A stretch of 42,039 bases of DNA from an uncultured Candidatus Saccharibacteria bacterium (GCA_964434255.1 CAYSUL010000001.1:269683-311721); one strand, 5' to 3'. Positions 4,432 to 31,357 are shown, counted from the first letter of the stretch. Made by a program: numbers and translations. The notes: a model not told the origin generated them from the sequence alone.

Positions 4432-6838
4432 GAAGACCACGGACAAGACCCGGCTCGTCGTTCTTGATGCGCACGCCATAATCCACCGGGCGTATCATGC
4501 GCTCCCGGAATTCACGGGGCCCGACGGTGAACCGACTGGAGCCTTGTACGGACTCTCCTCGATGCTTCTGCGCATCATGAGCGAGCTCAAGCCGGACCAC
4601 ATCGTTGCGGCGTACGACCTTGCGGGCCCCACCGTGCGTCACGAGGCATATGCGGAATACAAGGGGACGCGCGCGAAGACCGATGATGCGCTCATCAAGC
4701 AGCTCACGACCTCGCGCGATGTGTTCGAAGCGTTCTCCGTGCCTATATACGAGCGCGCTGGCTTCGAAGCGGATGATGTCATCGGCACCATCGTGAAGAT
4801 GCTCGAGAAAGACAAAGAGATAGAGATAATCATCGCATCGGGCGATATGGATACGATGCAGCTCATCACGGGCAAGCAGGTGCAGGTGTACACGCTCAAG
4901 AAAGGCCTGAACGACACGATTCTGTACGACGAGAAAGCAGTCGAGGAGCGTTACGGATTCCTACCGAAACTCATCGCGGACTATAAGGGCCTGCGCGGCG
5001 ACCCGTCCGACAACATCAAGGGCGTGCCTGGTATCGGCGAGAAGACTGCGACCGAGCTTATCCAGAAGTTCGGCACGGTCGAGGATATATACAAGGCGCT
5101 TAAGAAGAGCGAGACCTCATTCATCGAAGCGGGCATAAAGCCTCGTATCGTGAAGCTACTCATCGAGCATGAGGAGGATGCCCGTTTCTCGAAGAGCCTG
5201 GCGACGATACGCATGGACGCGCCCATCGCGTTCCATCTTCCGGAGAAGGACTGGAACGAGTGCGTGTCGCTCCCGGTCATCGCCGCATTGTTCGATAGGT
5301 TCGGCTTCCGGTCGCTCCGTCCTCGTGCGCAGGCGCTCTTCGGGAAGGACGGCACGGACGACGATTTCCTCGACGACGGCCCGCTCGAAGACGAGGAGTC
5401 TATCGCATCCGACCGGCTCGCCGAAGCGAAGGTCATGCTCTTCCTGCTCCATTCGGACTTCACGAACCCATCGCTCGATGACGTGCTCGCGTATACCAAG
5501 GCGAAGAACTTCGAAGAGGCATATGAAACCCTATCGAAGAGTATTGCTACTACCGGAAGGCTCAAGGAGGTATACGATTCCATCGAGCGTCCGCTCATCG
5601 ATATCGTGCGGGAGATGGGGGAGTGCGGCGTGAAGATAGACCGCAAGGTGCTCGAGGGACTGCGCGCCACGTATCGCAAGGAGCTCGAGAAGATAGAGAA
5701 GGGTATCTATACAATGGCAGGGCATGAGTTCAATGTCTCGTCACCCAAGCAGCTCGGTGACGTGCTCTTCGATGAGCTCGGGCTCGTGACGAAGGGACAG
5801 AAGAAGACCGCGGGCGGGCAGCGCTCGACGAAAGAGTCCGAGCTCGAGAAGATACGGGAGCTCCATCCCATCGTCGACGAAGTGCTCAAATACCGCGGGC
5901 TCATGAAGCTGCTCGGTACCTATATAGAAGCAATCCCGCCGCTGCTTGATAGCGAGGACCGCCTCCATGCGGAATTCCTGCAGACGGGCGCGATCACGGG
6001 CCGCATGGCGAGCCAGAACCCAGGTCTCCAGAACATTCCTATTCGTACGCCCGAGGGCCGCGCCATCCGTAACGCGTTCATCGCGCGCGACGGGTTCACG
6101 CTCGTCGCGCTCGACTATTCGCAGATAGAGCTTCGCATCGCCGCCATCCTTTCGAAGGACGAGAAACTCGGTGATATCTTCCGCTCCGGGCGCGACGTGC
6201 ACCAGGAAGTAGCAGCTGCGGTGTTCGCGGTCGAGCCCGCGAACGTGGACCGTGAGATGCGTCGCCGCGCGAAGATAATCAACTTCGGCATCCTCTATGG
6301 CATGGGCGTGAATTCGCTCCGTACCCAGCTCGGCGTATCGACCGCAGAAGCGCACCAATTCCACGAGGACTATTTCCGTACATTCGATACGCTCGCGAAG
6401 TATCTCGAGTCCACCCGCGGATTCGCGCGCAAGAACGGATACACGGAGACATTGTTCGGACGCCGCCGCCAGTTCCCCGAGATGAAGTCACCGCTTCCAT
6501 ACGTCCGTGCTCAGGCCGAACGCATGGCCATCAACGCACCGATACAGGGAACGCAGGCAGACATTATCAAGCGCGCGATGGTGGAGGTGGACACCATGCT
6601 CCGCAAGGAAGGGAGGCGCGAGGACGCGCACTTGCTTCTCCAGGTGCATGACGAATTGGTGTACGAGATACGCGACGGGTTCGTGAGCGAGCTCGCGCCG
6701 AAGATCAAGAAGATCATGGAGGACGCCCTATCCGGAAAGGAGGCCGAGGGCGTGCCCATCATCGCGGAAGGGAAGGTGGGGAAGAACTGGGGCGAGATGT
6801 CCCCACTTGGGGAATGGTCTCCACCCCCAGGCGGGTAG
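4424..6838 (+). CDS. polA: DNA polymerase I (5' nuclease plus polymerase, proofreading domain largely deleted)
   Basis: LDAHAIIHRAYHA, FEADDVIGT, GDPSDNIKGVPGIGEKTA, TGRMAS..PGLQNIP, DYSQIELR, KIINFGILYG, LQVHDEL. Confidence 0.97.
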   Translation: MPKKTTDKTRLVVLDAHAIIHRAYHALPEFTGPDGEPTGALYGLSSMLLRIMSELKPDHIVAAYDLAGPTVRHEAYAEYKGTRAKTDDALIKQLTTSRDVFEAFSVPIYERAGFEADDVIGTIVKMLEKDKEIEIIIASGDMDTMQLITGKQVQVYTLKKGLNDTILYDEKAVEERYGFLPKLIADYKGLRGDPSDNIKGVPGIGEKTATELIQKFGTVEDIYKALKKSETSFIEAGIKPRIVKLLIEHEEDARFSKSLATIRMDAPIAFHLPEKDWNECVSLPVIAALFDRFGFRSLRPRAQALFGKDGTDDDFLDDGPLEDEESIASDRLAEAKVMLFLLHSDFTNPSLDDVLAYTKAKNFEEAYETLSKSIATTGRLKEVYDSIERPLIDIVREMGECGVKIDRKVLEGLRATYRKELEKIEKGIYTMAGHEFNVSSPKQLGDVLFDELGLVTKGQKKTAGGQRSTKESELEKIRELHPIVDEVLKYRGLMKLLGTYIEAIPPLLDSEDRLHAEFLQTGAITGRMASQNPGLQNIPIRTPEGRAIRNAFIARDGFTLVALDYSQIELRIAAILSKDEKLGDIFRSGRDVHQEVAAAVFAVEPANVDREMRRRAKIINFGILYGMGVNSLRTQLGVSTAEAHQFHEDYFRTFDTLAKYLESTRGFARKNGYTETLFGRRRQFPEMKSPLPYVRAQAERMAINAPIQGTQADIIKRAMVEVDTMLRKEGRREDAHLLLQVHDELVYEIRDGFVSELAPKIKKIMEDALSGKEAEGVPIIAEGKVGKNWGEMSPLGEWSPPPGG

Positions 6839-6880
6839 ATACTTACGGGGGGAGTAACAGCTAGTTCGGGGAGGAAGACT

Positions 6881-7021
6881 ATGACCGGCGTTCCTATCGC
6901 GGGCTCGGTGTCTCGCAAGACTACTGGCAATCGCTTGCCGCCCGCCATCGGGCTCGGTGTCGGGGCCGGTGCGAGCCTCATGCTCTGGGCGCTGATTATC
7001 GCAGCCTTCAGGGCGTTCTAG
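6881..7021 (+). CDS. putative small membrane protein (46 aa)
   Basis: GGGGAGG Shine-Dalgarno, then MTGVPIAGSVSRKTTGNRLPPAIGLGVGAGASLMLWALIIAAFRAF*. Followed by a terminator at 7042-7067. Confidence 0.5.
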   Translation: MTGVPIAGSVSRKTTGNRLPPAIGLGVGAGASLMLWALIIAAFRAF

Positions 7022-7041
7022 AAAGCCAGGTTTCAATATGG

Positions 7042-7067
7042 AAAGGCGCCCGTAAGGGTGCCTTTTT
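7042..7067 (+). terminator. intrinsic terminator
   Basis: AAAGGCGCCC-GTAA-GGGTGCCTTTTT with a GNRA-type loop. Confidence 0.7.
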
Positions 7068-7088
7068 CCGTTCCTATATACTACGGAG

Positions 7089-7736
7089 GTGATCTACCTC
7101 TTCCACGGAAGCGATGCGAATAAAGTGCGAGCGAAGGCATTCGCGTGGGTAGCCGCTGCGCGCGCCAAGGCGCCGGAGGCCGCGTACATTCGCATATCCG
7201 CCGACCAGGTAAGCGCGAGCTCGCTCCTTGAGGCGCTTTCCTCGCAGGGTCTCTTCTTCACGAAGACTCTCGTGCTGCTCGACGACCCGTTCGCCCTTAG
7301 CGAGTCTGGCGAGACCGTGCTCGAGCACATCGACCTGCTTGCCGCATCCGCTAATCCGGTCGCGGTGCTTGCGCCGAAGCTTCTTGCTGCGCGCGCGAAG
7401 AAGCTCGAGGCCGTAGCGGAGAAGACCTTCAAGATAGACGCGGTCGCTTCGAAGGATCGCGGGTTCAATAGCTCGCTCGTGAATGCGCTCGCAGCGAAGG
7501 ACAATGCCGCGCTATGGAAAGAAATCGTTAAGGCCACGCGCGCAGGCGACGCTCCCGAGGCAGTGCATGGCCTCCTTCATTGGAAGGCGCGTGACCTGAT
7601 GCAGAAGGGAGGGCGCGAGTGGAACAAGGAAGAGGCGAGAGCGCTCTCGCTCTCCCTTATCGAGCTCCTTTCGGATTCAAGGGGGCGAGACCTTCCGCTC
7701 CCGCTCGCTCTTGAGCGGTTCGCGCTCGCGCTATAA
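7089..7736 (+). CDS. holA: DNA polymerase III delta subunit-like protein (shortened HolA)
   Basis: MIYLFHGSD N-terminus, SQGLFFTKTLVLLD, C-terminal LPLALERFAL typical of delta. Only 215 aa. Confidence 0.65.
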   Translation: MIYLFHGSDANKVRAKAFAWVAAARAKAPEAAYIRISADQVSASSLLEALSSQGLFFTKTLVLLDDPFALSESGETVLEHIDLLAASANPVAVLAPKLLAARAKKLEAVAEKTFKIDAVASKDRGFNSSLVNALAAKDNAALWKEIVKATRAGDAPEAVHGLLHWKARDLMQKGGREWNKEEARALSLSLIELLSDSRGRDLPLPLALERFALAL

Positions 7737-24262: not shown

Positions 24263-24295
24263 AAAGAACCCCCGGCCTTGCGCCGGGGGTTCTTT
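24263..24295 (+). terminator. terminator directly after rplK
   Basis: AAAGAACCCCCGGC-cttgc-GCCGGGGGTTCTTT. Confidence 0.75.
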
Positions 24296-24316
24296 CGTTT
24301 ACAGTGCGAGGACGAC

Positions 24317-25078
24317 ATGCAGATAATCGGCATACAGACACGGGCGCTCATCGCGCCCAAGGATTCGCTCCTCGATGCGATAAAGAAGTCGAAGCTATCC
24401 CTTAAGGAGGGAGACATTGTCGCCATCTCCTCCAAGGTAGTTTCTATCGACGAAGGTCGTACCGTGCTCATTGCAGATATTCCTGACAAGGAGCTGCTCA
24501 TACAGCAGGAAGCCGATTGGTATTTGAAAGCGCCTCGTACCTCCAAGTGGCGAAGTCGCTTCACGATAGCTAAGGGGGCAATGGCTGGATCCGCGGGAAT
24601 CGATGAGAGTAATGGCAGTGGTCACTACGTCTTGTATCCAGCAGATCCCTTCAAGAGTGCAAAGCGACTGCGCGCGTGGCTCCAGAAGGAATATGGCGTG
24701 AAGGAGCTTGGAGTCATCATTACGGACTCAATGAGCACCCCGCTTCGTCGAGGCGCCATCGGTTTCGCTCTCTCCTGGGACGGCATTGACCCGCTCCGGG
24801 ATTATCGTGGCACCGAGGACATCTTCGGTCGCATCATCAAGATAGAGCTTGCGAATCTCATCGATGCGCTCGCGGCTGCGGCGGTACTAGAAATGGGAGA
24901 GGGAGCTGAGCGTATTCCTGTCGCCGTTATCCGTGGCGCGAAGAATATCAGTCTCAAGAATCGCTCAAAGGGGAAGGACCAGCTCATCGTTATGCCCGAA
25001 GACGATGTGTTCGCAACATTCTTCTTCCACAAAAGCTTCAAGTGGAAGCGGGGAGGGAAGACTAACGCTCGAGCGTGA
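24317..25078 (+). CDS. CofE-family gamma-glutamyl ligase (probable alternative folylpolyglutamate synthase, FolC2-like)
   Basis: GDIVAISSKVVS, SAGIDESN, GVIITDS..TPLRRG, DYRG..DIFGR, MGEGAE. Convergent with folA. Confidence 0.85.
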   Translation: MQIIGIQTRALIAPKDSLLDAIKKSKLSLKEGDIVAISSKVVSIDEGRTVLIADIPDKELLIQQEADWYLKAPRTSKWRSRFTIAKGAMAGSAGIDESNGSGHYVLYPADPFKSAKRLRAWLQKEYGVKELGVIITDSMSTPLRRGAIGFALSWDGIDPLRDYRGTEDIFGRIIKIELANLIDALAAAAVLEMGEGAERIPVAVIRGAKNISLKNRSKGKDQLIVMPEDDVFATFFFHKSFKWKRGGKTNARA

Positions 25079-25553
25079 CCCAGGTATACGAGATTCCATT
25101 CTCGCTGTGGTCTTCGCGTTCGATCTCGTTCACGAACTCCGGATAGTCGGGGAAGGTGACGGTACCAGGCGTATCGTCATCGACGAGTGTTAGGTACAGG
25201 CGGGAGGCGAAAGGAAGTGCTGCGCGATATATCTCGCCGCCGCCTATGACGAATATCTCCTCGGCTCCAGACGCTTCTTTTGCGTATGAAAGAGCTTCAG
25301 GAAAAGAGTGGGCTATCGTCGCGCCTTGGGAAGGATATCCCTGAATCGTAGTGACGATGATGTTGGTGCGTCCCGCGAGCGGTCGGAACTTGAATGGGAT
25401 GGAGTCCCAAGTCTTTCGGCCCATGATGACCGGATGATTCATGGTCAGTTCCTTGAATCGTTTCATGTCGTCCGGAAGGCGCCACAGAAGATCATTGTCC
25501 TTTCCGATGACCCTATCCTTCCCGAGGGCTGCGATGAGGCTGATCTGATTCAT
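25062..25553 (-). CDS. folA: dihydrofolate reductase
   Basis: LIAA...RVIG..NDLLWRLPDDMKRFK, VIMGRKTW, RPL.GR.NI, VIGGGEIY. Confidence 0.96.
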   Translation of the reverse strand: MNQISLIAALGKDRVIGKDNDLLWRLPDDMKRFKELTMNHPVIMGRKTWDSIPFKFRPLAGRTNIIVTTIQGYPSQGATIAHSFPEALSYAKEASGAEEIFVIGGGEIYRAALPFASRLYLTLVDDDTPGTVTFPDYPEFVNEIEREDHSENGISYTWVTLER

Positions 25554-25565
25554 GGGAACAGCATA

Positions 25566-26012
25566 TCAGCTTCGGGCTCCTGTCTCATATAGGGCAGGCG
25601 ACCCGCCAGCTCGAGGAACAACGACTACGTAGTCCATGGGCTCGTCCCATGGCTGACGTCTAAGCGGTTCCTGCGAGAACTGGTCTTCGAAGCAGAACCC
25701 GATGCGCGTCCACTCGACAGGAACATGCGCGAGGAATCGGTCATACCAGCCGCCGCCTCGGCCGTAACGTGTTCCACCAGCATCGAAAGTACGCCCAGGT
25801 AAAAGAATCACCGTACTTTTATTGTCGGTCACCTTCCTTACTCGCATGGCTTCCATTACCGGATCGAGAGAAGCGCGGGGCGGAATTTCCAGTACTCGCG
25901 TCGCTTGAGGTAGTAGGAAACGTGTACGAAAATCTACTTCGGTTCGCAAGGGAACGTAGACGATGGTGAAGTCAGGGTGAGCGAGAAGGTTTTCGATAAC
26001 AGTCGCGGTCAT
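25566..26012 (-). CDS. 5-formyltetrahydrofolate cyclo-ligase family protein (N-terminally short)
   Basis: YVP..TEVD, LLPG..FD..G.RYGRGGGWYDRFL, PWDEPMDYVV. Confidence 0.85.
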   Translation of the reverse strand: MTATVIENLLAHPDFTIVYVPLRTEVDFRTRFLLPQATRVLEIPPRASLDPVMEAMRVRKVTDNKSTVILLPGRTFDAGGTRYGRGGGWYDRFLAHVPVEWTRIGFCFEDQFSQEPLRRQPWDEPMDYVVVVPRAGGSPALYETGARS

Positions 26013-26103
26013 CTGGTCGATTATAACGCTTTAAAACACTCAATTGCGCAAGCCTTCAGACTCTAGTAGCGTCACTCGAGACAACGTTCCTTAGAGGTGT
26101 ATC

Positions 26104-26784
26104 ATGGACGAAACTATGGCTAAGCCTACGGTATCCAATGGGGGAAGTAGGGCGCATAAGCCCAACCCGCTTCATCAACGAGCGGCGCGGCTCCTCAAGG
26201 GGTCTGCCTCATATGGTGATCGATTCGTACCGAATCACGATGAACTCACGGAGATAATCGGCCACCTGCGTTCTATGGGTGCGATCATCGTGTTCTCGAC
26301 AGGTGTCTGGGATCTCTTCCACATCGGCCACGCGGAATATATCCGTCGCGGCAAGGAGGAAGCGAAGAAACTGTATCCAGATGCCGAGCACATTATTCTC
26401 GTGCTGGGAGTCGATACGGACGAGCTCACTAAGATTAGAAAGGGTCCGAAGCGACCGATTGTTCCTGAGGACGAACGGTGCAAGATCCTCAGCGAGTTGA
26501 GAAGTGTGGATCTCCTCACCCTGCAGTATGAACAGAATCAACTTTACAAGGTTGTCGAACATGACGTGCGTGTCATATCAACCTCCACGCTTGATCTCCC
26601 AGACGATTTTGAGGATATCAAGCAGCAGTGCGAACATCTGGTGAATCTCCCGCCTCAGGCGGAAACGAGCACTTCTGCTCGGATCAGACTGCTTGCAATG
26701 GATGGCAAACTCGAGACACTTCAGTCATTCAAGGATCGACTGGAACGGCTACTGAAGGAGGTTGGCGATGAGCTCAATGCCTGA
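26104..26784 (+). CDS. cytidylyltransferase-like nucleotidyltransferase (TagD/RfaE-II-like HUP fold)
   Basis: TGVWDLFHIGH, LGVDTD, KG..RPIVPEDER, TSTSARI. Confidence 0.88.
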   Translation: MDETMAKPTVSNGGSRAHKPNPLHQRAARLLKGSASYGDRFVPNHDELTEIIGHLRSMGAIIVFSTGVWDLFHIGHAEYIRRGKEEAKKLYPDAEHIILVLGVDTDELTKIRKGPKRPIVPEDERCKILSELRSVDLLTLQYEQNQLYKVVEHDVRVISTSTLDLPDDFEDIKQQCEHLVNLPPQAETSTSARIRLLAMDGKLETLQSFKDRLERLLKEVGDELNA

Positions 26785-27604
26785 TATGACGCTCGTGGCG
26801 TACGTAGCTTCACCGCACGCTGGCTACCTGAAGCTCTTCCGGAAGTATCCCGGAGCGGTACTCTACGTGCTCGGGCCAGAATTCATCAGTGAATTCCCCT
26901 CGCTCACCCGGCATCTTCCGGGTAACGAACCTGAGGAAGCTCGTACGATGATCGAGGCTCTCGGTATCTTTCGCGAAGTGAAGGTGCTCCGGCCGGGCAT
27001 GCAGGGCGGGCTTGTTGGCCTCATAACGATGCCGGACGAGGATGTGTCACACGCGTTCGCAAGTAAGTATCTTCCAGATGCCGATATTTCCTTTGATGGG
27101 GAGTGGCGACTCAGGTGGGATTGGGCAGCCGTAGCTGCTCCGCAGGCTTCTACAAGCGATGAGCTTGTCTCGGAAGATGAGCTGGATCAAAATCTTCTTG
27201 GGCGTGCGACGGTCAGCTCACTTCGGAGTCCAGACTGGTGGCGACAGGTCGGTGCACTACTTGCGCGTGACGGGAATGCTATTCTCACCGCGTACAACAC
27301 GCATCTTCCATCGGAACAGAGCAACTATCTGCTCGGCGATCCGCGAAGCAACTTTGGTCCGGGGGAGAACATCGATATTTCTGCTGCACTACATGCGGAG
27401 ATAGGGGTGCTTACGGAAGCTGCGCGAAGAGGGATATCAACGGAGGGATGTGATCTCTATGTCACCACGTTCCCTTGTCCGCCCTGTGCATACGCGGTGG
27501 CAAATGCGGGTATTAAACGGCTCTTCTATGCTGACGGATATTCGCTCATCGCTGGTCGAGATGCCCTGGCTTCCCGTGGCGTGAAGATCATAAGGGTCAC
27601 GTGA
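26777..27604 (+). CDS. dCMP deaminase-family protein with an extra N-terminal domain
   Basis: S.DWWRQVGA, HAE, LYVTTFPCPPC zinc motif. About 130-aa N-terminal extension. Overlaps the stop of the upstream gene. Confidence 0.88.
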   Translation: MPDMTLVAYVASPHAGYLKLFRKYPGAVLYVLGPEFISEFPSLTRHLPGNEPEEARTMIEALGIFREVKVLRPGMQGGLVGLITMPDEDVSHAFASKYLPDADISFDGEWRLRWDWAAVAAPQASTSDELVSEDELDQNLLGRATVSSLRSPDWWRQVGALLARDGNAILTAYNTHLPSEQSNYLLGDPRSNFGPGENIDISAALHAEIGVLTEAARRGISTEGCDLYVTTFPCPPCAYAVANAGIKRLFYADGYSLIAGRDALASRGVKIIRVT

Positions 27605-27606
27605 CC

Positions 27607-27634
27607 ACTCCCTTGCCTGCGATGGCAAGGGAGT
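27607..27634. terminator. hairpin between convergent deaminase and HIT genes
   Basis: ACTCCCTTGCC-tgcgat-GGCAAGGGAGT. Confidence 0.6.
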
Positions 27635-28107
27635 TACTTTTTACCCTTGAATCCAATAAGTGCGGTGATGGGCTGGGTATCCTTCGTGCGTAGTGCTCCC
27701 ATTACTATTTGAGCGTGAAGATGCCGTACAGATGCCCCAGTACGGCGCATGTCTCCTGAGCGCATGAAAAGGGTGCATCCGGTCAATCCGTGCTCCTTAG
27801 ATAGTTTTGCGAATGCCTTGCCGAGGTCGGTCCAGGCGCTGTCTGGAAGCTCTGCTGCATTCTCGGTGTGCTTTCGATAGATGAGGAGAAAATGGTGTTT
27901 TGCACCCTCGTATTTCCACGCATTCCTGGTCGCAAGCCAATGGGTCGTTTTGAATAAGAGAGCTTCAGAATGATGCCGGAAAAGGTTCTCTTCGCAGAAC
28001 GGACAATGACCCTCTTCGACAATGCGAGTGAGAGCATCGGCATAATCACTACGGCTTACAAGCAAGGCGTTATTAATGCTCACTTGAAGTGTTCGTTTTC
28101 GGGCCAT
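27634..28107 (-). CDS. HIT-superfamily protein with HxHxQ motif
   Basis: CPFC, N..KY....HFLLI..KH, GASVRHLHAQI. Starts 2 nt after the thyA stop. Confidence 0.82.
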   Translation of the reverse strand: MARKRTLQVSINNALLVSRSDYADALTRIVEEGHCPFCEENLFRHHSEALLFKTTHWLATRNAWKYEGAKHHFLLIYRKHTENAAELPDSAWTDLGKAFAKLSKEHGLTGCTLFMRSGDMRRTGASVRHLHAQIVMGALRTKDTQPITALIGFKGKK

Positions 28108-28109
28108 GA

Positions 28110-28982
28110 TTACGGACGATAGGGAATCGCCATCCGCGGATGCGGATCATAATCTTCGATAGAAAAATGCTCGGTTCTAAAATCGAATAGATTCTTTATA
28201 TTCGGGTCGAGCTTCATTGTCGGGAAGGGTCGTGGGTCGCGCTGAACGAGCTCCCGTACTTTCTCTACCTGATCTTCGTAGATATGTGCATCAGAAAAAC
28301 TGTGCACATAATTACCAGGACGATAGCCGGTGACCTGGCAAATCATAAGCAGCAAAGACGCATATTGGATCATGTTCGATGGAACTCCTATGGGCATGTC
28401 TGCCGATCGCTGGTCCATACGCATATGGAGTCGGTCGCCAATCACTCGGAAATGGAGCCATCCATGGCAAGGAGCCACGATAACCTTCCTCCGGTCACCG
28501 CGAGCGGTGTAGTACGGTTTCCATGGCGTCACGAGGTGAGTGCGTACGGAAGGATAGGTGCGTATTTGTTCGATAACTTGCGCGAACTGATTCAACGTCC
28601 CTCCCTCTGGTATCTCAAAGTCATGAAAGGCTGCACCGTAAGAACCCGGACCAAGATCGTCGGCTTCGAGTCCAAGTTCGGTACCCTTACCGTAATAGTC
28701 CTTCCAAAAGTCACAGCCGAACGCCTCGAGTTCCGGGATACGTCGAGCGCCATTCATGAAGGCAATTATTTCTGAAACCGGCTTCTTCCAGAAGCTGATA
28801 CCGCGTTCCGTGATGAGCGGCACGCCATTTTCGAGATCGAAAACCATAGGCTGGAGTGTTCCGAAACAAGTCAGTGCGCCGATTCCTTGAGGGGTGTCCT
28901 TTACAAGTTCGCCGTGCTCAAGAATGAATGCGAGCCGATCTCGATATTGGGTGTCAGGCGTTCGCTCAGCGAAAGGCTTCAT
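28110..28982 (-). CDS. thyA: thymidylate synthase (divergent ThyA)
   Basis: FDL..G.PLIT, DLGPGSYG, APCH, QRSAD..IGVPSN, DAHIYE, YDPHP. Confidence 0.9.
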   Translation of the reverse strand: MKPFAERTPDTQYRDRLAFILEHGELVKDTPQGIGALTCFGTLQPMVFDLENGVPLITERGISFWKKPVSEIIAFMNGARRIPELEAFGCDFWKDYYGKGTELGLEADDLGPGSYGAAFHDFEIPEGGTLNQFAQVIEQIRTYPSVRTHLVTPWKPYYTARGDRRKVIVAPCHGWLHFRVIGDRLHMRMDQRSADMPIGVPSNMIQYASLLLMICQVTGYRPGNYVHSFSDAHIYEDQVEKVRELVQRDPRPFPTMKLDPNIKNLFDFRTEHFSIEDYDPHPRMAIPYRP

Positions 28983-29035
28983 TTGCCCCAATACTATCAC
29001 CCGGCTCGCAGATGCGAGAGTGCTACAATCCGGCC

Positions 29036-29464
29036 ATGAATGTACCAATCCGCCGCTTCGACCCAGAGGTCCCGCTCCCTGAATACAAGACCGAAGGGGC
29101 TGCAGCAATGGATTGCTATGTACGCGAAGACGTCACGATAGAAGCAAAGAGTATCGGATATGCTCAATTGAATTTCGCGCTCCAGGTCCCTCCTGGCCAC
29201 TTCACCATGCTTGCGGCGCGGAGCTCTCTCCATAAGCGCGGGCTCATGATGGGAAATGGTATCGGTATCCTCGATGAGGATTATCGCGGGAACGACGACG
29301 AATTCAAGGCGGTCCTCTATAACTTCACGGATGCGCCGGTAGAGGTGAAGCGGGGGGAGCGAGTGGTCCAAATAGTCATTCTTCCTTTCGATCGCGTAAC
29401 GCTTATGGAAGTCGAGTCGCTTGAGGGGAATTCGCGTGGAGGGCTGGGCACGACAGGTCTCTAG
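29036..29464 (+). CDS. dut: dUTP diphosphatase (trimeric type)
   Basis: AAAMD, ARSS, GILDEDYRG, GERVVQ, RGGLGTTG. Confidence 0.94.
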   Translation: MNVPIRRFDPEVPLPEYKTEGAAAMDCYVREDVTIEAKSIGYAQLNFALQVPPGHFTMLAARSSLHKRGLMMGNGIGILDEDYRGNDDEFKAVLYNFTDAPVEVKRGERVVQIVILPFDRVTLMEVESLEGNSRGGLGTTGL

Positions 29465-29535
29465 CTTGAGCTAATTGACCGTGCGAGGCATGATGGACGG
29501 CGGACCTTGTTTCTGCCTCAAAGGAGACGTTTGTC

Positions 29536-29940
29536 ATGGATATCCATCCAGCGCCTCCCGAGGCGCGATTCCTTCGAGCCCTACCGCTTATAGGGAAAGC
29601 TCGATACCAAAGGGAAGTGCCGCTCGCAGCTGCGCCACACATCGTTAACTGCTATAGAACCGTGCAGTGGTCATGGCTACCGTATCGCGAGCTGCCGGAC
29701 CATCTCCTTGCGTGGGAAGGTGCCCACGCGGTTCCTATCGAACTGATCGCCCCTGATGATCTAGTCTTCGCGCCGCGCCGCCGCTATCGGCTCGAGGAAG
29801 ACGACTTCGGTCACGTGGGCATGATGACGGATGTGGGCACTGTCGTTCACGCCACGAAATGGAAACGAGGGGTCGTTGAAGACCCCCTTGAAGAATTCCT
29901 CAGTCGCGGATGCCTCGGCATACGACGCATCCCGACCTAA
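29536..29940 (+). CDS. NlpC/P60 (C40) peptidase-like protein
   Basis: AAAGGAG Shine-Dalgarno. IVNC (catalytic Cys position), DLVF, GHVGM, VVHA. No signal peptide. Confidence 0.72.
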   Translation: MDIHPAPPEARFLRALPLIGKARYQREVPLAAAPHIVNCYRTVQWSWLPYRELPDHLLAWEGAHAVPIELIAPDDLVFAPRRRYRLEEDDFGHVGMMTDVGTVVHATKWKRGVVEDPLEEFLSRGCLGIRRIPT

Positions 29941-30055
29941 CCCCTGCTGCCGCCCCTCGGGCGGCAGCTTCCTTTTCAATTGGTATACTGTGCCCATCAC
30001 AACGGCTTATGGTGTAACGCGCTCCCCATTCTTTTATTAACGTATCCACCACACC

Positions 30056-31357
30056 ATGGATAATTACGACCACCTCAAGAACGAAGATAAGGAGATATAT
30101 GACGCGATAGCGGGGGAGGAACTACGCCAAGCGAACGGGCTCGAGCTCATTCCATCAGAGAACTACGTGTCGAAAGCGGTGCGCGAAGCGATGTCTTCCG
30201 GGCTCACCAACAAATACTCCGAAGGATATCCCGGCAAGCGCTACTACGGCGGCCAGGAATTCACGGACGAGATAGAGACCATCGCTATAGAGCGCGCGAA
30301 GAAGCTCTTCGGCGCCGACCATGCGAACGTGCAGCCGCTCGGGGGTGCAGCCACTAACATCGCAGCGTATTTCGCATGGCTCGAGCCGGGCGACACCATC
30401 CTCGGTATGGACCTCGCACATGGCGGCCACCTTACTCACGGCTCACCTGTGACCTACATGGCGCGTCTCTTCAACTTCGTCCGCTACGGCATGAAGGATG
30501 CGGACACCGGCGAGATAGATTACGACCTCATGCTCGAGGTCGCGAAGAAGGAACGACCTAAGATAGTGCTCGCAGGATTCTCGGGGTATCCCCGCGAACT
30601 CGACTGGCAGAAGATTTCCGACATCGCGCAGGAAGTGGGAGCGGTCGCGATGGCGGATGTCGCGCATATCGCGGGACTCATCGCAGGAGGCGCCGCAAAG
30701 AATCCGTTCGACTACGGGTTCCATATCGTGACCACCACCACCCACAAGACCCTGCGTGGCCCGCGCGGCGGCATGATCCTCACGAAGGGTACGATCTCGA
30801 CGCCGCTCAAGGCGCCGGAGAAGACCATTGAGAACCTTCCGACCCTCGTGGACCGCAGTGTATTCCCCGGGTTCCAGGGAGGCCCTCATATGCATCAGAT
30901 AGCGGCGAAGGCTGTGATGCTGCATGAGGCTGCACAACCATCATTCTCTACATACGCACATCAGGTGGTGAAGAATGCGAAAGCGATGGCGGAAGTGTTC
31001 ACCGACGACGGCGTGCGCCTCATTGCGGGCGGTACTGATAACCATCTCATCCTTGCGGACGTATTCACTTCGTTCGGGGTGGGGGGAGCTGAAGCGGAGA
31101 CACTGCTTGATAAGGCGGGGATGACGCTGAATAAGAATTCGATAGCGGGCGACACCCGGAAGCCGTTCGACCCATCAGGAATCCGTTTCGGTACTCCGGC
31201 CATGACTACGCGCGGGTTCCTCGAAGAAGACTCTCGCGAGGTCGCACGTCTCATGCTCGAGGTGCTGAAGAGTCGTGATGACGTGACTGTCGCCTCTGTT
31301 CGCGCAAGAGTGACTGCGCTCGCGCAGGCACACCCGATTCCTGAGTCGTTCGTATAA
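30056..31357 (+). CDS. glyA: serine hydroxymethyltransferase
   Basis: LIPSENY, NKYSEGYPGKRYYGG, HGGHLTHG, TTTTHKTLRGPRGG, SGIRFGTPA. Confidence 0.97.
   Translation: MDNYDHLKNEDKEIYDAIAGEELRQANGLELIPSENYVSKAVREAMSSGLTNKYSEGYPGKRYYGGQEFTDEIETIAIERAKKLFGADHANVQPLGGAATNIAAYFAWLEPGDTILGMDLAHGGHLTHGSPVTYMARLFNFVRYGMKDADTGEIDYDLMLEVAKKERPKIVLAGFSGYPRELDWQKISDIAQEVGAVAMADVAHIAGLIAGGAAKNPFDYGFHIVTTTTHKTLRGPRGGMILTKGTISTPLKAPEKTIENLPTLVDRSVFPGFQGGPHMHQIAAKAVMLHEAAQPSFSTYAHQVVKNAKAMAEVFTDDGVRLIAGGTDNHLILADVFTSFGVGGAEAETLLDKAGMTLNKNSIAGDTRKPFDPSGIRFGTPAMTTRGFLEEDSREVARLMLEVLKSRDDVTVASVRARVTALAQAHPIPESFV

What the first reader, a model, noticed from the sequence alone, without database searches (positions are those of the whole stretch)
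26104..28982. Candidate non-canonical thymidylate or nucleotide-modification module: nucleotidyltransferase + HUP-like deaminase + HxHxQ HIT + Arg-deficient ThyA
Seen: two tightly coupled gene pairs converge on a shared hairpin. The first is an HIGH-motif cytidylyltransferase-like gene overlapping a dCMP-deaminase gene. The second is thyA followed 2 nt later by a HIT gene. They lie between folA/5-FTHF cyclo-ligase and dut/glyA. Known: ordinary dTMP synthesis needs a deaminase, Dut, ThyA, DHFR and SHMT, but no nucleotidyltransferase or HIT enzyme. No teichoic-acid, heptose or FAD genes, the usual partners of TagD/RfaE/RibL-like enzymes, are nearby. Inference: the four proteins may form one pathway in which a (d)C nucleotide is first conjugated to an acceptor, then deaminated and methylated while capped, then released by the HIT enzyme as dTMP or dTDP. 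Alternatively the module makes a modified base or signalling nucleotide. Each enzyme deviates in a way consistent with this (see separate findings).
Basis: partly seen in the sequence, partly recalled or inferred. Interest (0 to 1): 0.88.

Follow-up and report, generated by a model that had tools for sequence, protein, structure and literature searches.

The report
Four-gene variant thymidylate module in Patescibacteria
A strictly conserved set of four neighbouring genes (a nucleotidyltransferase, a two-domain dCMP-type deaminase, an unusual thymidylate synthase and a HIT enzyme) takes the place of the ordinary thymidine-nucleotide genes in many ultra-small Patescibacteria, which suggests a so far undescribed way of making the DNA letter T.

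Summary
At 26104-28982 two gene pairs converge on an 11-bp hairpin. NT overlaps DEAM, and ThyA is followed 2 nt later by HIT. They lie between folA/MTHFS and dut/glyA.

The four genes co-occur. In 60 relatives, 17 genomes have all four and 2 have three at contig ends. None of the other 41 has a strong NT, HIT or long-DEAM match. Of 80 loci found through DEAM across Paceibacteria, 76 carry NT>DEAM> <HIT<ThyA.

- The DEAM N-terminal domain folds like a cytidylyltransferase (HxGY instead of HxGH).
- Module ThyAs form their own clade. They lack 2 of the 4 phosphate-binding arginines (R21, R127') and keep the catalytic residues.
- HxHxQ is not conserved: the third position is H, Q or N.
- A close relative carries tmk + canonical thyA + dcd at the same locus.
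- Module genomes G009 and G036 show no Dcd, Dut, Tmk, dNK, TK or ThyX.

Best reading, at about 0.35: NT and HIT add and remove a nucleotidyl handle on the 5'-phosphate. This is untested. Points against it:
- Dut and sometimes Tmk sit beside the module.
- A natural R127'-less ThyA is known to be active.

The finding is a new variant of a known pathway and can be tested biochemically.

The parts
26104..26784 (+). NT: cytidylyltransferase-family nucleotidyltransferase (226 aa). It has HxGH (H73, H76), RKGPxRP and ETSTxAR motifs. The first ~40 residues are poorly conserved.
   Evidence: PF01467, 32.4 bits. TIGR02199 scores 57.9 bits against a cut-off of 181.5. PDB hits are ECT, 3glv, CCT and TagD. 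Motifs are invariant in 17 sequences and in 89 of 91 unique sequences; the other 2 are gaps.
26762..27145 (+). DEAM N-terminal domain (about 128 aa). It has a cytidylyltransferase-like (HUP) fold with conserved HxGY, PxED and LR motifs. The likely start is the ATG at 26768, overlapping NT by 17 nt.
   Evidence: AF2 model, pLDDT 84.2, pTM 0.79. Best Foldseek hits are Fom1 CyTase 5x3d (E 4.8e-3, TM 0.56), TagD 2b7l, 3glv, HldC and FAD synthetase. Invariant residues.
27146..27604 (+). DEAM C-terminal zinc deaminase domain of dCMP-deaminase type, with HAE and PCxxC intact.
   Evidence: PF00383, 55.2 bits. Fold hits are dCMP deaminases 5c2o, 2hvw, 1vq2, 4p9c and 2w4l. H211, E213, C239 and C242 are conserved.
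27607..27634 (.). Hairpin shared by the two convergent gene pairs. It is probably a bidirectional terminator, and its 3' arm reaches the HIT stop codon.
   Evidence: 11 bp stem, -22.2 kcal/mol, z = -5.4.
27634..28107 (-). HIT-superfamily protein (157 aa) with a CPFC zinc motif and HLHAQ. It starts 2 nt after the thyA stop.
   Evidence: weak PF01230/PF19327. 15 of 17 family members match PF01230. The profile hits Hint/Fhit-type PDB chains. Invariant residues.
28110..28982 (-). ThyA*: thymidylate synthase of a separate clade (290 aa). The catalytic residues are kept. R21 is replaced by P and R127' by T.
   Evidence: The clade split has support 1.0.
24278..26012 (.). Context: cofE-like putative folate gamma-glutamate ligase (24278-25078, +), folA (25062-25553, -) and a short 5-FTHF cyclo-ligase (25566-26012, -).
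29033..31357 (+). Context: dut (about 29033-29464), an unassigned 134-aa ORF (29536-29940) and glyA (30056-31357).

Best explanation
The four genes form one dedicated module that turns a deoxycytidine nucleotide into a thymidine nucleotide. In part of the Paceibacteria it takes the place of the ordinary Dcd-ThyA-Tmk gene set at the same chromosomal site.

Shown:
- The module exists, is conserved and is exclusive of the canonical set.
- DEAM is an intact zinc deaminase of dCMP-deaminase type fused to a cytidylyltransferase-like domain.
- ThyA* keeps all catalytic and uracil/deoxyribose-recognising residues and sits beside folA and glyA. It is therefore a reductive C5-methylase of a dU nucleotide.
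- ThyA* is the only thymidylate-forming enzyme detected in the genome.

Inferred mechanism:
1. NT joins a nucleotide to the 5'-phosphate end of the deoxypyrimidine. Either it transfers (d)CMP from dCTP to a phosphorylated acceptor, or it transfers an NMP onto dCMP. Either way the product is a pyrophosphate-linked conjugate.
2. DEAM holds the handle with its degenerate transferase-like domain and deaminates C to U.
3. ThyA*, whose phosphate pocket has lost two of four arginines, methylates the conjugate.
4. HIT cleaves the pyrophosphate link through a nucleotidyl-histidine intermediate and releases dTMP. With phosphate as acceptor it would release dTDP.
For: Co-occurrence in 60 relatives:
- 17 genomes have all four genes on one contig, and 2 more have three at contig ends.
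- None of the other 41 has a strong NT, HIT or long-DEAM match.
- 20 of those 41 have a ThyA at 27-41% identity.

Order NT>DEAM> <HIT<ThyA:
- Found in 16 of 16 fetched loci.
- Found in 76 of 80 loci reached through DEAM. Three of the rest are cut by contig ends and one has NT+DEAM only.

Alternative set at the same site: the close relative G028 carries tmk + canonical thyA + dcd there.

NT-DEAM coupling:
- The two genes overlap by 17-23 nt.
- One 469-aa NT-DEAM fusion occurs among the 150 listed of 587 representatives.
- A 158-kb viral record (CheckV 97%) holds the NT+DEAM pair but no ThyA or HIT.

DEAM N-domain: cytidylyltransferase-like fold, with conserved HxGY (88 of 93 unique sequences).

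ThyA*:
- R21 is non-Arg in 86 of 89 unique sequences.
- R127' is T or S in 88 of 89.
- R166 is kept in 89 of 89.
- It forms a separate clade: 94 module versus 16 non-module sequences, support 1.0.

Pathway holes:
- G000, G009 and G036 have no dNK, Dcd, ThyX or TK.
- G009 and G036 also have no Dut.
- All three have no Tmk.

Chemical precedent: in fosfomycin biosynthesis a substrate is cytidylylated by Fom1, methylated as the CMP conjugate by Fom3, then released by FomD (PMC8158854, passages read). Fom1's cytidylyltransferase domain is the best fold match of the DEAM N-domain.
Against: - No biochemical datum exists, and no substrate can be read from the sequences.
- R127' is naturally Gly in the Vibrio-clade ThyA. 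That paper describes this position as permissive to mutation with activity retained (PMC6005164, passages read). From recall, not from a call, R21 is also mutation-tolerant.
- ThyA* has clade-specific basic residues that could replace the lost arginines (R8, R81, K100, K167, R270).
- A third ThyA type in the same genus (G017) lacks R21, R126' and R127', yet has no NT or HIT.
- dut, which makes free dUMP, lies in the flanks of 20 of 80 module loci and next to thyA* in the window.
- Tmk is in the flank of 6 of 80 loci and in 16 of 50 module genomes. So Tmk is not generally replaced.
- The HIT third residue varies (H 44, Q 41, N 17 of 104 unique) and does not track Tmk presence.
- Profile comparison of the DEAM N-domain with NT gives only 3% probability.
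- The fold match is modest (E 5e-3, TM 0.56).
- The handle route costs extra energy.
Confidence: 0.35

Rival explanations
1. Ordinary chemistry with accessory enzymes. DEAM deaminates free dCMP, and its extra domain is only a nucleotide-sensing or regulatory module. ThyA* methylates free dUMP. NT and HIT serve supply or clean-up around the pathway, for example turning dCTP into a dCMP-level compound, or hydrolysing nucleotide by-products. No capped intermediate passes through ThyA*.
For: - ThyA* keeps every catalytic residue plus R126', R166 and S167.
- A natural R127'-less ThyA is reported as active (PMC6005164).
- dut lies beside thyA* in the window and in 20 of 80 flanks, and tmk in 6 of 80 flanks.
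- Tmk is present in 16 of 50 module genomes.
- Canonical dCMP deaminases are allosterically controlled by dCTP and dTTP (established knowledge, recalled).
- The HIT profile is closest to Hint/Fhit-type hydrolases.
Against: - It gives no specific role to NT or HIT, although both are strictly tied to DEAM and ThyA* and were not found in relatives with a canonical ThyA.
- It does not explain why HIT always follows thyA* while NT always precedes DEAM.
- It leaves the source of dCMP open in genomes without dNK, Dcd or Dut.
Confidence: 0.3
2. A triphosphate-level route. DEAM is a zinc-dependent dCTP deaminase whose transferase-like domain grips the triphosphate. This would parallel the kinase-like domain of anti-phage dCTP deaminases. 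HIT, together with Dut where present, then converts dUTP to dUMP for ThyA*. NT has a separate, linked role.
For: - The best NCBIfam match of the DEAM core is the anti-phage dCTP deaminase NF041025, at 64.5 bits over residues 199-264.
- A chlorovirus bifunctional dCMP/dCTP deaminase is among the fold hits (7fh4).
- Module genomes lack Dcd, and G009 and G036 lack Dut.
- HUP-fold HxGH motifs bind NTP phosphates (established knowledge, recalled).
Against: - The NF041025 score is far below its cut-off of 400 and covers only the catalytic core.
- The top fold hits are dCMP deaminases.
- NT remains unexplained.
- dUTP hydrolysis by a HIT enzyme is not an established activity (recalled).
Confidence: 0.15
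3. The module makes a modified base for DNA, or a signalling dinucleotide, not ordinary thymidylate.
For: - ThyA-family enzymes include hydroxymethylases and CMP/UMP-specific enzymes (PMC5175136, abstract in the listing only).
- A putative jumbo phage carries the NT+DEAM pair beside a Tad3-like counter-defence gene.
Against: - ThyA* is the only ThyA in G000. No ThyX and no TK were detected. So it must supply thymidylate.
- N177, H207 and Y209 are conserved.
- folA and glyA are adjacent, as expected for reductive methylation that yields dihydrofolate.
- The island lies among housekeeping genes, between rplK and argS.
Confidence: 0.07
4. Chance neighbours: NT and HIT are unrelated housekeeping genes that happen to lie in a conserved syntenic block.
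For: The whole region from secE-nusG-rplK to glyA-argS is syntenic across the order.
Against: - NT, HIT and long DEAM appear and disappear together with ThyA*, while the flanking synteny stays.
- An NT-DEAM fusion exists.
- A virus carries the NT+DEAM pair.
Confidence: 0.03

Closest known systems
Canonical bacterial dTMP pathways: dCMP deaminase or Dcd/Dut, then ThyA + DHFR + SHMT, then Tmk
   Same: The module has a deaminase of dCMP-deaminase type and a ThyA with all catalytic residues. It has folA, glyA and (in the window) dut as neighbours. The close relative G028 has the textbook set tmk-thyA-dcd at the same site.
   Different: - Two obligate extra genes (NT, HIT).
- The deaminase carries a transferase-like domain.
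- ThyA lacks R21 and R127'.
- No Dcd, dNK, TK or ThyX in the three module genomes searched (G000, G009, G036).
- No Tmk in 18 of 20 module genomes of the relatives sample, and no Dut in G009 and G036.
Vibrio-clade (VAAP) thymidylate synthase with a natural R127' to Gly change (PMC6005164)
   Same: A natural loss of one of the four dUMP-phosphate arginines, at the same position.
   Different: ThyA* lacks R21 as well, forms its own clade, and is always followed by a HIT gene. The paper calls its case the first natural substitution of these arginines (passage read).
Transient cytidylylation in fosfomycin biosynthesis (Fom1 CyTase, Fom3, FomD; PMC8158854)
   Same: The same logic of attaching a nucleotide handle, modifying the conjugate (there by C-methylation), then hydrolysing the phosphoanhydride. 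Fom1's CyTase domain is the best fold match of the DEAM N-domain.
   Different: - The substrate there is a phosphonate.
- The methylase is a radical SAM enzyme.
- The releasing enzyme FomD is, from recall, not a HIT protein.
- Here the analogy is only inferred.
Cytidylyltransferase family: TagD/GCT, CCT/ECT, RfaE/HldE domain II, HldC, archaeal RibL-like 3glv
   Same: NT has the HxGH, KG..RP..ER and ISTT-like motifs, and it matches PF01467 and these PDB chains.
   Different: It scores far below every equivalog cut-off (57.9 against 181.5; 27.3 against 165.4). The usual partner genes are absent in the flank, and the acceptor is unknown.
HIT superfamily: Hint, Fhit, DcpS, GalT and Ap4A phosphorylase
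   Same: It has a CxxC zinc motif and the histidine triad core H-x-H. Profile hits go to Hint/Fhit chains and to the HIT and DcpS_C Pfam families.
   Different: It is a divergent subfamily. The window's copy falls below the Pfam cut-off, and the third triad position is H, Q or N. It cannot be placed in the hydrolase or the phosphorylase/transferase branch.
Two-domain zinc dCTP deaminases (anti-phage dCTP deaminase NF041025; vertebrate CDADC1)
   Same: A cytidine-deaminase-fold catalytic domain joined to another domain. The DEAM core matches NF041025 best among NCBIfam models.
   Different: From recall, the extra domain there is kinase-like or a second deaminase-like domain. Here it is a cytidylyltransferase-like fold. 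The score is far below the cut-off.

Membership tests
Thymidylate synthase ThyA (PF00303 / TIGR03284) | Family model scores above the curated cut-off | tested here: met
   PF00303 scores 213.2 bits against a cut-off of 24.3. TIGR03284 scores 173.9 against 108.35.
Thymidylate synthase ThyA (PF00303 / TIGR03284) | Catalytic Cys146, uracil-selecting Asn177, 3'-OH ligands His207 and Tyr209, and essential Arg166/Ser167 | tested here: met
   Alignment to PDB ThyAs. Among unique module ThyAs: C in 88 of 89, N in 87 of 89, R166 in 89 of 89. Among all 94 module ThyAs, not de-duplicated: H207 in 91, Y209 in 91.
Thymidylate synthase ThyA (PF00303 / TIGR03284) | Four-arginine clamp on the dUMP phosphate (R21, R126', R127', R166) | tested here: not met
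   R21 is P in the window and non-Arg in 86 of 89 unique sequences. R127' is T in the window and T or S in 88 of 89. R126' is R or K in 86 of 89.
Thymidylate synthase ThyA (PF00303 / TIGR03284) | Converts free dUMP and CH2-THF to dTMP and DHF | not testable with these tools
   Support is from context only: folA and glyA are adjacent, this is the only ThyA in G000, and there is no ThyX or TK.
dCMP deaminase (PF00383, dCMP_cyt_deam_1) | Zinc and catalytic motifs HAE and PCxxC, with a dCMP-deaminase fold | tested here: met
   PF00383 scores 55.2 bits. The motifs are invariant. Fold hits include 5c2o, 2hvw, 1vq2 and 4p9c, with E of 1e-9 to 1e-10.
dCMP deaminase (PF00383, dCMP_cyt_deam_1) | Equivalog-level match to a named dCMP deaminase (ComEB, TIGR02571) | tested here: not met
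   48.7 bits against a cut-off of 219.45. There is an extra N-terminal domain of about 130 aa.
Cytidylyltransferase family (PF01467), for NT | HxGH and C-terminal ISTT-type motifs, with the family model above its cut-off | tested here: met
   PF01467 scores 32.4 against 21. H73 and H76 are present in 89 of 91 unique sequences. The ETSTxAR motif is seen.
RfaE domain II / TagD / RibL-type enzymes, for NT | Equivalog score and the usual partner genes (heptose, teichoic acid or flavin) | tested here: not met
   TIGR02199 scores 57.9 against 181.5. TIGR01518 scores 27.3 against 165.4. No such partner genes occur among the 9 ORFs scanned from 24278 to 29940.
Cytidylyltransferase-like (HUP) fold, for the DEAM N-domain | Fold similarity | tested here: met
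   The model has pLDDT 84. The top 3 PDB hits and 2 further entries (HldC, FAD synthetase) in the top 10 are cytidylyl/adenylyltransferases, with prob 0.9-1.0, TM 0.5-0.57 and E 5e-3 to 6e-2.
Cytidylyltransferase-like (HUP) fold, for the DEAM N-domain | Catalytic HxGH motif and sequence-level family membership | tested here: not met
   The motif is HxGY (Y in 88 of 93, H in 2 of 93). There is no Pfam match. The profile has no significant PDB hit by sequence. hhalign against NT gives 3% probability.
HIT superfamily (PF01230) | Histidine triad core and family model match | tested here: inconclusive
   The window copy scores 20.1 bits against a cut-off of 21.5. 15 of 17 members match at E <= 0.1, best 6.7e-8. 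The profile hits Hint/Fhit chains at E 3e-6. H129 is in 109 of 109 and H131 in 108 of 109 sequences, paralogues included.
GalT / Ap4A-phosphorylase branch of HIT (HxHxQ) | Gln at the third triad position, conserved in the family | tested here: not met
   The third position is H in 44, Q in 41, N in 17 and other in 2 of 104 unique sequences. PF19327 matches only 1 of 17 members.
Nucleotide-handle pathway (Fom1/Fom3/FomD type logic) | The intermediate is a nucleotidyl conjugate that the tailoring enzymes require | not testable with these tools
   Support is indirect only: gene order, the DEAM N-domain fold, and arginine loss in ThyA*.

The most novel reading that the evidence does not exclude
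Paceibacteria with this module make thymidine nucleotides on a handle. A deoxycytidine nucleotide is first joined through a pyrophosphate bond to a second nucleotide or phospho-compound by NT. It is deaminated and C5-methylated as that conjugate by a handle-binding deaminase and an arginine-poor ThyA. The HIT enzyme then releases it as dTMP or directly as dTDP. In this scheme free dUMP/dUTP, Dut, Dcd and, in many lineages, Tmk are dispensable.
Probability: 0.25. Interest if true: 0.9.

Novelty: new variant of a known kind. Interest (0 to 1): 0.68.

Why it matters
Thymidylate synthesis is one of the best-known and most drug-targeted pathways, and its enzyme set is regarded as settled. Here a lineage holding at least several hundred species-level genomes carries a fixed four-gene alternative. 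One search found at least 564 DEAM relatives among the species-representative genomes.

- Two members of the set have no role in the textbook pathway.
- The deaminase has an unrecognised domain architecture.
- The ThyA clade breaks the four-arginine rule.

If the accessory enzymes act on the 5'-phosphate, this would be a new way of handling deoxypyrimidine nucleotides. It could explain how organisms with 0.6-0.9 Mb genomes do without Dcd, Dut, dNK and often Tmk. Even under the ordinary reading, it assigns a pathway context to three protein subfamilies that are now annotated only generically. All four proteins are small and soluble-looking, so the question can be tested directly in vitro.

Tried and rejected
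1. Tmk bypass: the idea that NT+HIT replace thymidylate kinase.
- It was suggested: Tmk over the cut-off in 2 of 20 module genomes against 27 of 41 others.
- It was weakened by tmk in the flank of 6 of 80 module loci and Tmk in 16 of 50 module genomes.
- Nine relatives have neither ThyA nor Tmk, and type-C genomes lack Tmk without having NT or HIT.
- The HIT third residue shows no link to Tmk presence.
- I keep it only as an option for the release step.

2. An AAA_33 kinase in G000 (C7:7976-8491) as a general Tmk substitute. Rejected: strong matches occur in only 4 of 61 genomes, one of them the canonical-type G028.

3. Complex prediction of DEAM with NT. The verdict was 'no answer', score 0.00, and the controls were not run. 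It counts neither for nor against binding.

4. hhalign of the DEAM N-domain against NT gave 3% probability. A sequence profile of the N-domain against PDB gave no significant hit. Only the fold search was informative.

5. Fold search with the full-length DEAM model returned only deaminase hits, so the N-domain was folded alone.

6. Searches with little or no yield:
- The search for homologous proteins with HIT gave 15 proteins carrying only generic 'Ap4A HIT family hydrolase' names.
- GenBank phages searched with NT gave only remote CTase hits of 33% identity or less over partial length.
- The Protein Atlas gave only generic cluster names.

7. Literature. Searches found no paper on this gene combination in Patescibacteria or CPR. 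That is a statement about those three searches of the held library only. Supplements were closed and not consulted.

8. The TLC nucleotide transporter search is uninformative, because the control genomes did not ring either.

Full report
THE OBSERVATION

The ORF list and family scans show two convergent gene pairs.
- On the + strand lies a 226-aa cytidylyltransferase-family protein, NT (26104-26784). It matches PF01467 at 32.4 bits. Its best NCBIfam models are RfaE domain II and TagD, both far below their cut-offs.
- NT overlaps by 17-23 nt a 280-aa protein, DEAM (26762/26768-27604). The C-terminal half of DEAM is a dCMP/cytidine-deaminase zinc domain (PF00383). Its first ~140 residues match nothing.
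- On the - strand, thyA (28110-28982; PF00303, 213 bits) is followed 2 nt later by a 157-aa HIT-like gene (27634-28107). That gene has weak PF01230/PF19327 matches, a CPFC motif and HLHAQ.
- Between the pairs lies an 11-bp-stem hairpin (27607-27634) with a T-rich tail. Its energy is -22.2 kcal/mol and z = -5.4.
- The flanks are cofE-like/TIGR04132, folA and a short MTHFS on one side. On the other are dut, an unassigned ORF, glyA and argS.

The description is correct.

THE GENOME

The window lies in a 710-kb, 42-contig genome that is 97.8% complete. Its closest named relatives are labelled Kaiserbacteria, Paceibacterota or Parcubacteria. This is a CPR/Patescibacteria organism with about 58% G+C.

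CO-OCCURRENCE

I searched 60 relatives, 36 of the same genus and 24 of other families in the order, with each of the four proteins.
- Seventeen genomes have strong matches to all four genes, always on one contig.
- G001 and G006 have three of the four at contig ends.
- None of the other 41 genomes has a strong NT, HIT or long-DEAM match. Twenty of them have a ThyA at only 27-41% identity.

In 16 of 16 fetched module loci the order is NT>DEAM> <HIT<ThyA, between secE-nusG-rplK(-folA) and (dut-glyA-)argS.

A pattern scan of one genome per species, using the DEAM alignment, found at least 564 relatives. The best 80 loci all carry Patescibacteria-type labels, apart from a few evidently automatic ones.
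- Seventy-six of the 80 contain all four genes in the same arrangement.
- Three are cut by contig ends.
- One (L082) has only NT+DEAM.
- folA sometimes sits between HIT and thyA.
- Some loci carry a second HIT paralogue.

ALTERNATIVE GENE SETS AT THE SAME SITE

The site between rplK and argS carries different gene sets in different relatives.
- G028 has flanking genes 79-91% identical to the window's. It carries tmk, a canonical thyA with all four arginines, and a dCTP deaminase.
- A third type (G017 and others) has two Dcd-like genes and a longer ThyA lacking R21, R126' and R127'.

So the module is one of at least three interchangeable solutions at one locus.

THE PROTEINS

NT keeps the catalytic HxGH, RKGPxRP..ER and ETSTxAR motifs. 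They are present in 89 of 91 unique sequences, and the other 2 are gaps. By sequence, the nearest solved structures are ECT, the RibL-like 3glv, CCT, HldC and TagD.

DEAM keeps HAE and PCxxC. Its model matches dCMP deaminases of Streptococcus mutans, T4, cyanophage S-TIM5 and human. Its N-domain was folded alone (pLDDT 84).
- The best matches are the Fom1 cytidylyltransferase domain, TagD, 3glv, HldC and FAD synthetase (E 5e-3 to 6e-2, TM about 0.56).
- This is the same fold family as NT. It carries HxGY in place of HxGH, plus conserved PxED and LR motifs.
- Sequence-level kinship to NT is not demonstrable (hhalign 3%).

HIT has an invariant CPFC...H zinc motif and an H-x-H core.
- The third triad position is H in 44, Q in 41 and N in 17 of 104 unique sequences.
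- Profile searches place it nearest Hint/Fhit/DcpS-type HIT proteins.

ThyA* keeps C146, R126', R166, S167, D169, N177, H207 and Y209.
- R21 is replaced by P, Q, I or F, and R127' by T or S, in 86 and 88 of 89 unique sequences.
- All 94 module ThyAs separate from 16 non-module ThyAs of relatives on a long branch with support 1.0.
- They share clade-specific basic residues and an N-terminal extension with a nearly invariant Arg.

LINKS BETWEEN THE GENES
- NT and DEAM overlap.
- One representative protein of 469 aa is an NT-DEAM fusion. A sequencing frameshift cannot be excluded.
- A 158-kb viral record (CheckV 97%) carries the NT+DEAM pair next to a Tad3-like gene. It has no ThyA or HIT anywhere in the record.

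NT+DEAM is therefore a separable unit, and ThyA*+HIT is the other.

PATHWAY CONTEXT
- G000 has one ThyA, NDK and a class I/II RNR.
- G000 has no ThyX, TK, dNK or Dcd.
- The high-quality module genomes G009 and G036 also lack Dut.
- Tmk is over its cut-off in 2 of 20 module genomes, against 27 of 41 others, in the relatives sample.
- Tmk is present in 16 of 50 module genomes sampled more widely and lies in the module flank in 6 of 80 loci.
- dut lies in the flank in 20 of 80 loci.

INTERPRETATION

It is shown that the four genes form a functional unit tied to dC-to-dT conversion. It is also shown that ThyA* must be the cell's thymidylate synthase. What NT and HIT do is inferred.

The reading that gives every part a role is a nucleotidyl handle on the 5'-phosphate:
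1. NT installs the handle.
2. The degenerate transferase-like domain of DEAM binds it.
3. ThyA*, with an opened phosphate pocket, accepts the conjugate.
4. HIT removes the handle.

The logic has a precedent in fosfomycin biosynthesis, where Fom1 cytidylylates, Fom3 methylates the CMP conjugate and FomD hydrolyses it (PMC8158854, passages read). I give this reading about 0.35, and about 0.25 for the full version in which ThyA* requires the conjugate.

Against it:
- A natural ThyA lacking R127' is reported as active, and the position as permissive (PMC6005164, passages read).
- Type-C ThyAs lack three arginines without having NT or HIT.
- Dut and sometimes Tmk accompany the module.
- The fold evidence is modest.
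- Nothing biochemical is known.

The main rival (0.30) is ordinary dCMP/dUMP chemistry with NT and HIT as accessory supply or clean-up enzymes. A triphosphate-level variant (0.15), a modified-base or signalling product (0.07) and chance (0.03) follow.

COMPARISON WITH WHAT IS KNOWN, AND NOVELTY

Each protein belongs to a known superfamily. None reaches an equivalog-level assignment except ThyA, and ThyA fails the four-arginine criterion.

Three full-text searches found no description of this gene combination in the held library. Supplements were closed.

I rate the finding a new variant of a known pathway. It would be categorically new if the handle mechanism proved true.

Noticed in passing
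L040 (G017:C1:843000-856000) 4894-6993; also L039, L041: A third island type has two tandem Dcd-like genes (187 aa each) and a 321-aa ThyA with a large insert. That ThyA lacks R21, R126' and R127' and keeps R166. These genomes mostly show no Tmk (G003, G007, G017, G023, G029), but G002 has tmk adjacent.
   Followed up: partly
L030 (G028:C4:12000-24500) 5038-7292: A close relative, with flanking genes 79-91% identical, carries tmk + canonical thyA + dcd exactly where the window has the four-gene module. This implies cassette replacement within a conserved syntenic frame.
   Followed up: yes
L125 (IMGVR_UViG_3300037483_001116) 4553-6807: A 158-kb viral record carries the NT+DEAM pair directly after a Tad3-like (Thoeris inhibitor family) gene. 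Glycosyltransferases and a C-methyltransferase lie nearby. The record has no ThyA or HIT.
   Followed up: partly
P0163 (469 aa): A single-polypeptide NT-DEAM fusion occurs among the representatives. It could be a true fusion, or a frameshift artefact at the overlapping gene junction.
   Followed up: no
window 24278-25078 (+) and 25062-25553 (-): A cofE-like gene best matches TIGR04132, 'putative folate metabolism gamma-glutamate ligase' (202.8 bits, below its cut-off of 350). It overlaps the 3' end of folA by 17 nt in convergent orientation. Some relatives (L018) carry two copies.
   Followed up: no
window 25566-26012 (-): The 5-formyltetrahydrofolate cyclo-ligase is short (148 aa) and matches only the C-terminal part of the Pfam and TIGR models (profile positions about 103-185).
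   Followed up: no
window 29536-29940 (+): A 134-aa ORF between dut and glyA has no Pfam or NCBIfam match. A relative of it appears in one other module locus (L104).
   Followed up: no
G000:C7:7976-8491 (L123 974-1492, -): A 172-aa AAA_33-family P-loop kinase of unknown specificity lies next to a pheT-like gene (assigned by eye from the translation, no family scan). It is one of two small stand-alone P-loop kinase candidates found by a Walker-A pattern scan of G000. The other, at C1:176684-177268, looks like a guanylate kinase from its motifs (recalled, not scanned). It is sporadic among relatives, with strong matches in 4 of 61.
   Followed up: yes
L018, L019, L022, L028 and about 14 of L043-L122: A second, more divergent HIT paralogue (26-30% identity to the first) lies inside or beside many of the more distant modules.
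   Followed up: no
G013, G016, G034, G040, G046, G047, G048, G056, G059: Nine relatives show neither ThyA nor Tmk. I did not search ThyX or thymidine kinase in them. Their source of thymidine nucleotides is unexplained.
   Followed up: no
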